From the NCBI RefSeq assembly GCF_003334305.1, contig NZ_QOWS01000003.1: a stretch of DNA of 64,000 bases; one strand, given 5' to 3'. Below, piece after piece: positions 13,311 through 42,806 of this stretch (its first letter is position 1; every line of letters starts with the position of its first letter). The notes beneath the pieces are model-generated. The model was not told the DNA's origin, did no database searches, and saw only the letters and a list, made by a program, of their open reading frames with translations. The position numbers and the translations under genes were made by a program. This stretch comes from Escherichia coli. GTDB lineage: Bacteria > Pseudomonadota > Gammaproteobacteria > Enterobacterales > Enterobacteriaceae.

Positions 13311-13499
13311 CAGGGACATCCTTTTATTATCGGGAATACGAAAGAAAAGGGAGAATAAACGTCTTACTTATAGAACAGTGAAGAATGCCACAATTTTACG
13401 CTTTGAAAATGATGACACTATCACAGTTGGCGCATTCATTAACGATAGGGTATAAGTAAAACAATAAGTTAACACCGCTCACAGAGACGAGGTGGAGAA

Positions 13500-16723: not shown

Positions 16724-16899
16724 ATCTTATCCGACCTTTCAGGCCAGATCCTCGGAAGGGGAAGTTGATTAATTTGTGTGAAATACACATTGAAAGCCGA
16801 TTCGAAGAAAGTGAACCGGCATTTTCAGTGGCTAGTATAGCGTAAGGTACTGTAAAGTCGCCAGAGGGTTAAAATTCAGACTGCTGATAAATGCAATAC

Positions 16900-17000
16900 T
16901 GCCTGATGCGCTATGCCGATCAGGCCTACGCAGTCCCTGCAATATATTGAATTTGGACGATTTTGTAGGCCTGGTAAGGCATTCACGCCGCATCTGGCAT
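16900..17000. repeat. REP/BIME cluster between msrA and ytfL
   Basis: GCCTGATGCG...CGATCAGGC and GTAGGCCTGGTAAGGC...GCCGCATC motifs. Confidence 0.75.
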
Positions 17001-25917: not shown

Positions 25918-26075
25918 TATGCCTGATGCCGATTCGTAGGCCGGATAAGGCGCTCGCGCCGCATCCGGCGGTGGTGCGCTGAAGCCTGATGCGACGCTTA
26001 CCGCGTCTTATCATGCCTACGAGTTCGGTGCTCTGTGTAGGCCGGATAAGGCGTTCACGCCGCATCCGGCAGTGG
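25918..26075. repeat. REP/BIME cluster (about four palindromic units) downstream of ytfQ
   Basis: Repeated GCCTGATGCGACGC and GTAGGCCGGATAAGGCG...GCCGCATCCGGC units. Confidence 0.85.
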
Positions 26076-26106
26076 TGCAACACCGGACTTAACACCGTGC
26101 ACAATC

Positions 26107-26148
26107 TGTCCCCTCGCCCCTTCGGGGAGAGGGTTAGGGTGAGGGGGA
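26107..26148. repeat. GC-rich boxC-like intergenic repeat, copy 1
   Basis: TGTCCCCTCGCCCCTTCGGGGAGAGGGTTAGGGTGAGGGGGA; nearly identical copies at about 59231 and 63303. Confidence 0.7.
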
Positions 26149-26219
26149 CAAACGGCGCAGCTCTTAACATCAGGCACGATCTATTCCCAGACTTTTAGAG
26201 CGTGGCTAAGGGGGAAACC

Positions 26220-32344: not shown

Positions 32345-32445
32345 TGCCGGATAAGGCGTTTACGCCGCATCCGGCATTTGAGCATAGTGCCTGATGCGAC
32401 GCTTGATGCGTCTTATCCGGCCTACAGGTGCACCGCATCCGGCAA
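32345..32445. repeat. REP/BIME cluster between mpl and yjgA
   Basis: GCCGGATAAGGCGTTTACGCCGCATCCGGC and GCCTGATGCGACGC units. Confidence 0.85.
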
Positions 32446-42539: not shown

Positions 42540-42806
42540 CGCCATAGATGCTACGAATATTATTGGATTCTCCTTATTATTTGCGGCGCTTTTTTCACTT
42601 ACCGGAGGTTATATGGAACCTGATCCCACGCCTCTCCCTCGACGGAGATTAAAACTTTTCCGGTAAGCCCGTCTTTTCACGGCGTTACCGGATGCGTAAG
42701 GCCGTGACGTTTTAACGTCCCTGCTCAGCTTTATTACCTTCAGGTAAGGCTTCGCCACGCCTGAAGACATTTCTGTACTGTTTCAGACAGTGCGGAGGGA
42801 CTCCTT
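42540..42806 (+). promoter_or_regulatory. mgtA 5' leader (Mg2+/proline-responsive attenuation region containing mgtL)
   Basis: About 265-nt untranslated leader between the PhoP-dependent promoter and the mgtA start, containing the proline-rich leader ORF. Confidence 0.7.
42613..42666 (+). CDS. mgtL: mgtA leader peptide MgtL (17 aa, proline-rich)
   Basis: ATG 42613 to TAA 42664-42666 encodes [17 protein letters not shown] inside the mgtA 5' leader. Confidence 0.8.

What the first reader, a model, noticed from the sequence alone, without database searches (positions are those of the whole stretch)
26107..26148. Three dispersed copies of a GC-rich boxC-like repeat
The element GGGGAGAGGGTTAGGGTGAGGGG, preceded by an inverted C-rich arm, occurs after the ytfQ REP cluster (about 26107-26148), between pepA and holC (about 59231-59276) and between lptG and yjgR (about 63303-63350). 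The latter two also share a TCGATCGG extension. All three are intergenic and can fold as imperfect hairpins. They resemble the boxC family of E. coli intergenic repeats, whose function is unknown.
Basis: partly seen in the sequence, partly recalled or inferred. Interest (0 to 1): 0.3.

Follow-up and report, generated by a model that had tools for sequence, protein, structure and literature searches.

The report
Three BoxC repeats in E. coli
The three GC-rich sequences are genuine copies of BoxC, a known short intergenic repeat of E. coli with no proven function; all three are absent from most E. coli strains, so the finding itself is ordinary.

Summary
GGGGAGAGGGTTAGGGTGAGGGG occurs three times in the window (two exact copies, one with 2 mismatches), against 0 expected by chance. 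Each copy has an upstream C-rich arm and lies between genes.

The copies match the published BoxC family (also called PIT, TMECO type A and HPG1). Copy 3 is letter-for-letter identical to three K-12 copies. The "TCGATCGG extension" is the family's consensus left flank.

New detail from this work:
- K-12 MG1655 has none of the three copies.
- They occur in 878, 1,402 and 1,744 of 5,426 complete E. coli genomes.
- The other alleles carry REP arrays or other hairpins. No clean empty site was found.
- No promoter or terminator signal overlaps any copy.
- Predicted folds are hairpins, and the model never preferred a G-quadruplex.

Best reading: a dispensable, selfish, structure-prone repeat.

Side lead, outside the window: the same three-block core occurs in Verrucomicrobia, Armatimonadota, Nitrospirales, Gracilibacteria and Proteobacteria. 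There it sits in frame inside conserved genes (LepA, MiaB, SufS, UvrD). I found no paper describing this.

The finding itself is already known.

The parts
26097..26161 (+). BoxC copy 1, full unit. Left outer arm GTGCACAATCTGT 26097-26109; C-arm CCCCTCGCCCC 26110-26120; loop TTC 26121-26123; G-block 1 GGGGAGAGGG 26124-26133; TTA 26134-26136; G-block 2 GGGTGAGGGGG 26137-26147; right outer arm to about 26161. The G-rich strand is the sense strand of the ytfQ-ytfR operon.
   Evidence: Present in 878 of 5,426 genomes. Absent from K-12.
59228..59276 (+). BoxC copy 2. Left outer arm TGCGCTCGATCGGTT 59228-59242; C-arm CCCTCTCCC 59243-59251; loop TTA 59252-59254; G-block 1 GGGAGAGGG 59255-59263; TTA 59264-59266; G-block 2 GGGTGAGGG 59267-59275. 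pepA and holC are transcribed from the - strand, so any transcript carries the C-rich complement.
   Evidence: Present in 1,402 of 5,426 genomes. K-12 has a REP pair here instead.
59195..59205 (+). CCTCACCCTAA, the exact reverse complement of TTAGGGTGAGG at 59264-59274. It is probably the remnant of an inverted partner copy. It gives an 11-bp outer stem that encloses the copy 2 hairpin.
   Evidence: sequence; predicted fold -41.9 kcal/mol as RNA, -23.1 with DNA parameters.
63300..63361 (+). BoxC copy 3, full unit. Left outer arm GAGTTCGATCGGT 63300-63312; C-arm CCCCTCGCCCC 63313-63323; loop TTT 63324-63326; G-block 1 GGGGAGAGGG 63327-63336; TTA 63337-63339; G-block 2 GGGTGAGGGG 63340-63349; right outer arm CACAGACCGCAC 63350-63361. 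It lies between the convergent genes lptG and yjgR, 17 nt from the yjgR stop codon.
   Evidence: The core is identical to TMECO 7, 11 and 15. Present in 1,744 of 5,426 genomes. K-12 has other sequence with a REP here.
25939..26081 (+). REP cluster (BIME-like) that precedes copy 1. It is context, not part of BoxC.
   Evidence: Rfam naRNA4 (REP-derived) hits at 25939-26017 (67.3 bits) and 26040-26081 (44.1 bits). Alignment A1.
63256..63275 (+). Hairpin AGGGAGCGAAAGCTCCCTTT just after lptG, shared by BoxC and non-BoxC alleles. It is the likely real terminator of this convergent pair and is context only.

Best explanation
The three sequences are copies of BoxC, also published as PIT element, TMECO type A and HPG1. 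BoxC is a roughly 56-60 bp dispersed intergenic repeat of E. coli. Its core has three blocks: a C-rich arm, a complementary G-rich block, and a near-duplicate of that G-rich block. An imperfect outer inverted repeat flanks the core. I read it as a dispensable, selfish, non-autonomous repeat of the same general kind as REP, MITEs or the Rickettsia palindromic elements. Copies have been placed at many unrelated sites. They persist where they do no harm, such as 3' ends of genes and spacers within operons. They are lost or swapped together with neighbouring intergenic cassettes. In this window they have no promoter or terminator role. When the DNA is single-stranded or transcribed, each copy folds into a stable hairpin, and that fold probably explains both the local instability and any minor effect on mRNA ends. 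What is shown: the family identity, the intergenic position, dispensability, polymorphism, the absence of promoter and terminator signals, and insertion into genes in other phyla. What is inferred: the selfish or mobile nature, how copies are made, and any effect on mRNA.
For: Identity: exact or near-exact match to the published K-12 copies. Multi-copy and dispersed: 5,417 of 5,426 E. coli genomes hold at least one copy, median 17, range 1-30. Dispensable: all three copies are absent from K-12 MG1655 and present in only 16%, 26% and 32% of complete genomes, even though essential genes (holC, lptG) lie next to them. Same niche as REP: the alternative alleles carry REP arrays of 1, 2 or 3 units, or other hairpins. 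Instability: strain HYM1 has a 6-nt slippage deletion inside copy 3, and Holder 2015 found TMECO loci far more variable than controls. No regulatory signal: there are no promoter-like or terminator-like sites over any copy, and published tests found no promoter or terminator activity. Fold: hairpins of -18 to -25 kcal/mol as RNA. Selfish behaviour elsewhere: the same three-block core occurs in many copies with unrelated flanks in Alpha-, Gamma- and Deltaproteobacteria, Verrucomicrobia, Armatimonadota, Nitrospirales and a 28%-GC Gracilibacteria genome. There it lies in frame inside conserved genes, on both strands and in several phases. It appears as an insertion relative to solved homologs of LepA, MiaB, SufS and UvrD.
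Against: No transposase or other mobilising gene is known, and I did not find one. I found no clean filled-versus-empty site and no target-site duplication at any of the four E. coli loci examined; every difference is a cassette replacement. So copying has not been caught in the act. Holder 2015 found no association with transposons, phages or plasmids, although I saw 50 matches on plasmids. Some copies are nearly fixed in the species (zntA-tusA, 5,149 of 5,426 genomes), which could indicate a function at some sites. The near-identity of the core across phyla would be unusual for a purely selfish element, unless a very conserved factor recognises it. Hairpin z-scores for copies 1 and 3 are weak (-0.85 to -2.4).
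Confidence: 0.6

Rival explanations
1. The element is a regulatory switch between duplex, hairpin and G-quadruplex, on DNA or on mRNA, that tunes transcription or termination of neighbouring genes (Kaplan et al. 2016).
For: All three copies fit the motif of four G-runs of at least 3 separated by 3-nt loops. Circular dichroism of oligonucleotides showed ion-dependent G-quadruplex and hairpin forms. K-12 copies lie close to the 3' ends of genes.
Against: The copies are absent from most strains at these sites. Copy 2 presents the C-rich strand to the transcript, so no RNA quadruplex can form there. Orientation relative to genes shows no bias. With quadruplex energies switched on, the fold program still chose the hairpin for every copy. 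Published tests found no promoter or terminator activity. In other phyla the element sits inside coding sequence in both orientations.
Confidence: 0.12
2. The element forms an intrastrand triplex that stalls replication, and it is kept because the resulting local instability creates useful variation (Holder et al. 2015).
For: A stable triplex of the single strand was shown in vitro by CD and NMR, and TMECO loci are more variable than control intergenic sites. The three window loci are all multi-allelic. A slippage deletion lies inside copy 3 in one strain.
Against: In vivo DMS footprinting and duplex CD/NMR gave no sign of a triplex. Variability is equally expected if the repeat simply settles in spacers that are already variable and REP-rich, and the alternative alleles here are REP arrays. 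Selection for instability itself is hard to sustain. The zntA-tusA copy is stable in 95% of genomes.
Confidence: 0.15
3. The element is a selected mRNA 3'-end protector, like REP in the malE-malF spacer. Its hairpin blocks 3' exonucleases and so raises expression of the upstream gene (ytfQ, pepA, yjgR).
For: Stable stem-loops are predicted on whichever strand is transcribed. Copy 1 sits after the gene for the periplasmic binding protein of an ABC transporter operon, the classic REP position. REP arrays occupy the same sites in other strains.
Against: This has not been tested for BoxC. Copy 1 is added to a spacer that already holds three REPs. Hairpin stability of copies 1 and 3 is barely above that of shuffled sequence (z -0.85 to -2.4). 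The model does not explain the conserved third block or the cross-phylum conservation.
Confidence: 0.1
4. The three matches are chance similarity of GC-rich low-complexity sequence.
For: None beyond the simple composition.
Against: There were 0 matches in 100 shuffles. Similarity is in register over about 55 nt, flanks included. Thousands of identical copies exist in E. coli genomes.
Confidence: 0.01

Closest known systems
BoxC / PIT element / TMECO type A / HPG1 of E. coli (Bergler 1992 and Bachellier 1999 as cited in PMC2267715; Hoyne and Maher 2000, 2002 as cited in PMC4666352; Holder 2015, PMC4666352; Kaplan 2016, PMC5100583)
   Same: The three-block core, the TTA middle loop, loop lengths, outer flanks, intergenic position, multi-copy dispersal and strain-to-strain variability are all the same. 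Copy 3 is identical to three K-12 copies.
   Different: Nothing essential differs. These three loci are not among the 23 K-12 copies. They may be among the 63 loci that Holder catalogued in 56 strains, but I did not check that supplement.
REP / BIME elements of enterobacteria
   Same: Both are short, GC-rich, hairpin-forming, dispersed intergenic repeats found at 3' ends of genes and in operon spacers. In this window they occupy the very same spacers as alternative alleles.
   Different: The sequence is unrelated. REPs are species-specific and are linked to a RAYT transposase, whereas the BoxC core is nearly the same across phyla and has no known enzyme. BoxC also has a third block that duplicates one arm.
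Rickettsia palindromic elements (RPE; Ogata et al. 2000; from my own knowledge)
   Same: Both are short selfish repeats found between genes and also in frame inside conserved protein genes, where they add a short peptide. This is what I saw for the BoxC core in Gracilibacteria, Afipia/Pseudolabrys and Verrucomicrobia.
   Different: RPEs are 100-150 bp, AT-rich and confined to Rickettsia. The BoxC core is about 36 nt, GC-rich and found in many phyla. In E. coli it is not seen inside genes.
Rfam whalefall-1 RNA motif (RF01762)
   Same: The order of blocks is the same: CUCUCC, loop, GGAGAG, then AGGGUGAGG downstream.
   Different: The score is 19.7 bits against a gathering threshold of 37. The model has a 24-nt segment where BoxC has 3 nt. 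This is a resemblance only, not membership.

Membership tests
BoxC / TMECO (pattern of Holder 2015: CCCTCNCCC N3-6 GGGNGAGGG N3 GGGNGAGGG) | Three-block sequence pattern with 9-nt stems, a first loop of 3-6 nt and a second loop of 3 nt | tested here: met
   All three copies fit the pattern. The pattern is quoted.
BoxC / TMECO type A | Second loop is TTA (type B has CCG or similar) | tested here: met
   TTA at 26134-26136, 59264-59266 and 63337-63339. The types are defined.
BoxC / TMECO | Near-identity to the reference K-12 copies | tested here: met
   Copy 3 equals TMECO 7, 11 and 15. Copy 1 differs by one loop base. Copy 2 is closest to entries 17 and 2.
BoxC (56-bp unit) | Similarity extends into flanks, giving a unit of about 56 bp with an outer imperfect inverted repeat | tested here: met
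   The consensus of 17 type A copies is G.GC.CGATCGGT + core + AACAG.C..GCAC. Partial BLAST hits of 55 nt to other loci appear. Copy 2 has the left arm but a diverged right flank. The 56-bp length is cited.
BoxC / TMECO | Always intergenic in E. coli | tested here: met
   All three copies lie between annotated genes.
BoxC / TMECO | Dispersed and multi-copy in the genome | tested here: met
   Median 17 places per genome across 5,417 genomes.
Potential intrastrand triplex (PIT) | The single strand actually forms a triplex | not testable with these tools
   Shown in vitro by others and not detected in vivo.
G-quadruplex-forming motif (HPG1) | Four G-runs of at least 3 with loops of 1-7 nt | tested here: met
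   GGG(G) AGA GGG TTA GGG TGA GGG(G) in all three copies. Actual folding was not tested, and the energy model preferred the hairpin.
Intrinsic terminator | GC-rich stem followed by a run of T | tested here: not met
   No terminator-like site overlaps any copy.
Rfam whalefall-1 (RF01762) | Score at or above the gathering threshold of 37 bits | tested here: not met
   19.7 bits.
Transposable element (MITE-like) | Clean insertion junction with target-site duplication, or a linked transposase | tested here: inconclusive
   No clean empty site was found at four E. coli loci. No enzyme was sought systematically. Insertions into genes in other phyla argue for mobility but do not reveal junctions.

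The most novel reading that the evidence does not exclude
The 36-nt three-block core of BoxC may not be an enterobacterial curiosity. It may be a pan-bacterial selfish module, copied by a still unknown and widely shared mechanism. Under this reading it can land inside essential genes and be read through as a 12-residue insert. In E. coli it would be seen only between genes because the type A sequence carries stop codons in three of six frames and because selection is efficient. The published range was 262 proteobacterial genomes, with intergenic location only.
Probability: 0.4. Interest if true: 0.6.

Novelty: already known. Interest (0 to 1): 0.2.

Why it matters
For this window it matters little. 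The three sequences can be annotated as BoxC repeats, and the three spacers can be flagged as strain-variable sites where BoxC and REP cassettes alternate. That is useful for typing and for avoiding false small-ORF or sRNA calls.

The wider question is why one 36-nt sequence is kept nearly unchanged in phyla as far apart as Proteobacteria, Verrucomicrobia and Gracilibacteria, and how it is copied. That question has been open since the 1990s. The in-frame insertions into LepA, MiaB, SufS and UvrD offer a new, testable handle on it. Closely related genomes with and without an insert could give exact junctions. Genomes rich or poor in the element could be compared to find the responsible gene.

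Tried and rejected
- Rfam at curated thresholds found nothing at the three sites or in six distant loci. At permissive thresholds there were only weak hits.
- I looked for a clean filled-versus-empty site to define the ends of the element and any target duplication. I tried ytfQ-ytfR, pepA-holC, lptG-yjgR and adk-hemH, and every alternative allele is a different cassette. zntA-tusA is nearly fixed and gave no useful contrast.
- Two K-12 fetches missed their targets because I wrongly shifted the published coordinates.
- The open-frame test for intergenic location is uninformative in high-GC genomes, where long spurious frames are common. Only the 28%-GC genome and homology-confirmed cases were used.
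- G-quadruplex folding was allowed in the energy model and was never chosen over the hairpin. This is a model result, not a measurement.
- A literature search for the insert peptides found nothing, and searches for newer functional work on BoxC found nothing beyond 2016.
- From the strands in the published K-12 table I counted orientation relative to replication by hand. The G-rich strand is on the lagging-strand template in 13 copies and on the other strand in 10, so there is no bias.
- I did not run the large protein-database searches, because the question they would answer lies outside the finding.

Full report
**Observation.** The 23-mer GGGGAGAGGGTTAGGGTGAGGGG occurs at 26124-26146 and 63327-63349 without mismatch, and at 59254-59276 with two mismatches. 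None of 100 dinucleotide-preserving shuffles of the window gave any match. Each copy is preceded by a C-rich arm complementary to the first G-rich block: CCCCTCGCCCC at 26110-26120, CCCTCTCCC at 59243-59251 and CCCCTCGCCCC at 63313-63323.

The window is E. coli. A 2.5-kb stretch is 100% identical to several complete genomes and carries ytfQ and ytfR. The gene order matches K-12 from ytfQ to yjgR. Copy 1 lies between ytfQ and ytfR after a REP cluster. Copy 2 lies between pepA and holC, both on the minus strand. Copy 3 lies between the convergent genes lptG and yjgR, downstream of a short hairpin that follows lptG.

**Identity.** Holder et al. 2015 (PMC4666352) state that their triplex motif TMECO is the element first described as BoxC and later as PIT. 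They list the 23 copies of K-12 MG1655. Kaplan et al. 2016 (PMC5100583) rediscovered the same sequence as the G-quadruplex group HPG1. An earlier survey lists BoxC as a 56-bp repeat with 32 copies (PMC2267715).

The copy 3 core is identical to TMECO entries 7, 11 and 15. Copy 1 differs by one loop base. Copy 2 is the perfect-stem variant, closest to entries 17 and 2. I fetched 14 K-12 loci and aligned their 14 type A copies with the three window copies. Similarity continues into the flanks. The consensus is G.GC.CGATCGGT, then CCCCTCGCCCC-TTT-GGGGAGAGGGTTAGGGTGAGGGG, then AACAG.C..GCAC, and the two flanks form an imperfect outer inverted repeat. Every defining feature of the family that could be tested was met.

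**What is specific to these three copies.** None of them exists in K-12 MG1655.
- Between ytfQ and ytfR, K-12 has a shorter spacer with REPs only.
- Between pepA and holC, K-12 has a REP pair in place of BoxC.
- Between lptG and yjgR, the hairpin after lptG is shared, but the rest is different sequence containing a REP.

Among 5,426 complete E. coli genomes, the BoxC-bearing allele is present in 878 (ytfQ-ytfR), 1,402 (pepA-holC) and 1,744 (lptG-yjgR). Queries anchored in the flanking genes show discrete allele sizes at each locus. Representatives show REP arrays of one, two or three units at pepA-holC, a third ytfQ-ytfR allele with BoxC but a single REP, and a strain (HYM1) in which six bases inside copy 3 have been lost by slippage between the two G-rich blocks.

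At a K-12 BoxC locus, adk-hemH, the element is present in 2,915 genomes, and the other allele carries a different hairpin. At zntA-tusA the element is nearly fixed, in 5,149 genomes. I found no clean empty site at any locus, so neither the ends of the mobile unit nor a target duplication could be defined. Across the species, 5,417 genomes hold at least one copy, the median is 17 and the range is 1 to 30. Strain-to-strain variability of these loci was already reported for 56 strains.

**Structure and signals.** As RNA, the copies fold into hairpins of -18 to -25 kcal/mol. Z-scores against shuffles run from -0.85 to -3.4 and are strongest for the perfect stem of copy 2. With DNA parameters the hairpins are about -9 to -10 kcal/mol. 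In copies 1 and 3, the C-arm, which carries a G where a T would give a perfect stem, can pair with either G-rich block. With G-quadruplex energies enabled, the hairpin was still preferred in every case.

Copy 2 has an additional feature. CCTCACCCTAA at 59195-59205 is the exact complement of TTAGGGTGAGG at 59264-59274. It is probably a remnant of an inverted partner, and it gives an 11-bp outer stem. No sigma-70-like promoter or intrinsic-terminator-like site overlaps any copy. Rfam has no family for the element. The only notable sub-threshold hit is whalefall-1, which has the same order of blocks.

**Published experiments.** These are summarised. The isolated G-rich strand forms a triplex or a quadruplex in vitro, depending on ions. 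The duplex does not, and in vivo footprinting found no triplex. Tests for promoter, terminator and polymerase-blocking activity in vivo were negative. There is no bias in orientation or in the function of neighbouring genes. I found no newer functional work.

**Evidence from elsewhere.** These come from Alpha-, Gamma- and Deltaproteobacteria, Verrucomicrobia, Armatimonadota, Nitrospirales, a Gracilibacteria genome and unclassified bacteria. Almost every instance has the C-rich arm 2-7 nt upstream. The flanks are unrelated between lineages and often form a longer lineage-specific repeat within a lineage.

In the Gracilibacteria genome (28% GC, where long chance ORFs are rare) the elements lie inside long open frames as often as random positions do. 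Many sit deep inside genes, on either strand and in several phases. They read through as inserts such as PHPNPLPEGEG, ALTPTLSQRERE or SLSLWERVGVR, and the usual unit is 36 nt. Alignment to solved structures shows these peptides as insertions in LepA/EF4, MiaB and SufS.

The same occurs under the standard genetic code. In Afipia the UvrD-type helicase carries about 54 extra residues between motifs II and III, including the element. Its Pseudolabrys counterpart shows the same element-encoded peptide at the corresponding place, which I read from the sequence and did not check against structures. Verrucomicrobial ORFs that look like NuoL, PpsA and protein kinases also show the insert, but I did not verify these by homology. 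Holder et al. reported the motif only in 262 proteobacterial genomes and only between genes. I found no paper containing the insert peptides. This is the behaviour known for the Rickettsia palindromic elements, which I cite from my own knowledge.

**Interpretation.** The simplest account of all this is that BoxC is a dispensable, selfish, structure-prone repeat. It has been copied to many unrelated sites. It is tolerated in spacers at gene ends, and it shares those spacers with REP elements. It is lost, mutated or exchanged together with neighbouring sequence.

Reading the type A core directly, it has stop codons in three of its six frames (TGA, TAG, TAA). Together with efficient selection in E. 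coli, this would keep it out of genes there. In Gracilibacteria, TGA codes for glycine and the middle loop is mostly TTG, which leaves all frames open. When transcribed, each copy adds a stable stem-loop, and any effect on mRNA ends is an untested inference. How the element is copied is unknown.

I put the family identity at about 0.97 and this mechanistic reading at about 0.55-0.6. The rivals are a quadruplex/hairpin regulatory switch, triplex-driven adaptive instability, and a selected mRNA-protecting hairpin. Each explains part of the data. All are weakened by the dispensability of the copies, the lack of orientation bias, the negative functional tests, and the coding insertions in both orientations.

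**Verdict.** The finding is real and correctly interpreted, and it belongs to a family known since the 1990s, so its own interest is low. The cross-phylum coding insertions are a side observation outside the window. They may be new and deserve a separate look.

Noticed in passing
L077-L093 (Candidatus Gracilibacteria MAG JALNXF01), e.g. L088, L090, L082: The BoxC three-block core (usual unit 36 nt) lies in frame inside conserved genes of a 28%-GC genome that uses genetic code 25. It occurs on both strands and in several phases, giving roughly 12-residue inserts such as PHPNPLPEGEG, ALTPTLSQRERE and SLSLWERVGVR. Hosts confirmed against solved structures are LepA/EF4, MiaB and SufS. IleRS-like, RlmD-like and L10-like ORFs also carry it.
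   Followed up: partly
L037 (Afipia), L076 (Pseudolabrys), L095-L109 (Verrucomicrobia): The same in-frame insertion occurs under the standard genetic code. In Afipia the UvrD-type helicase has about 54 extra residues between motifs II and III (checked against E. coli UvrD structures). Its Pseudolabrys counterpart shows the same insert peptide by eye. Verrucomicrobial ORFs resembling NuoL, PpsA, Ser/Thr kinases and a sensor kinase show one or two inserts, not verified by homology.
   Followed up: partly
L002-L121: The exact core GGGAGAGGGNNNGGGTGAGGG with its upstream C-arm is multi-copy in Alpha-, Gamma- and Deltaproteobacteria, Verrucomicrobia, Armatimonadota, Nitrospirales, Gracilibacteria and unclassified MAGs. 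In several lineages the core is embedded in a longer lineage-specific repeat.
   Followed up: partly
window 59195-59205: CCTCACCCTAA is the exact reverse complement of TTAGGGTGAGG in copy 2 (59264-59274). It is probably the remnant of an inverted partner copy, and it gives an 11-bp outer stem around the copy 2 hairpin.
   Followed up: partly
window 59241-59276: There is a sub-threshold match to Rfam whalefall-1 (RF01762; 19.7 bits, threshold 37) with the same order of blocks (CUCUCC, GGAGAG, AGGGUGAGG). That metagenomic motif may be a relative of this repeat.
   Followed up: partly
L142 (strain HYM1, lptG-yjgR), aligned to window 63331-63336: A six-base deletion (AGGGTT) inside copy 3 removes the middle of the element. 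It is an example of slippage between the two G-rich blocks.
   Followed up: yes
window 25939-26081 and 32345-32422: These are REP clusters that score as Rfam naRNA4 (REP-derived nucleoid-associated RNA). The first precedes BoxC copy 1. K-12 has one REP unit fewer at that site.
   Followed up: partly
window 59165-59290 versus L001, L140, L141: The pepA-holC spacer is a multi-allelic site. It holds BoxC, or REP arrays of one, two or three units, giving spans of 551, about 577, about 675 and about 771 bp between the same anchors.
   Followed up: yes
window 60047-60241 (+): This is a full-length Rfam match to Ysr276 (184.9 bits). It lies on the strand opposite pepA, inside the pepA coding region.
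   Followed up: no
window 13311-13433, 16785-16842, 16922-16964, 42598-42713: Other Rfam matches above threshold are ES239, STnc450, ES036 and the Mg2+ riboswitch upstream of mgtA.
   Followed up: no
E. coli genomes plasmids, e.g. NZ_CP074792.1 1629-1664: BoxC cores also occur on plasmids: 50 places, including a 36-nt perfect match on a 155-kb plasmid. The 2015 study reported no association with plasmids.
   Followed up: no
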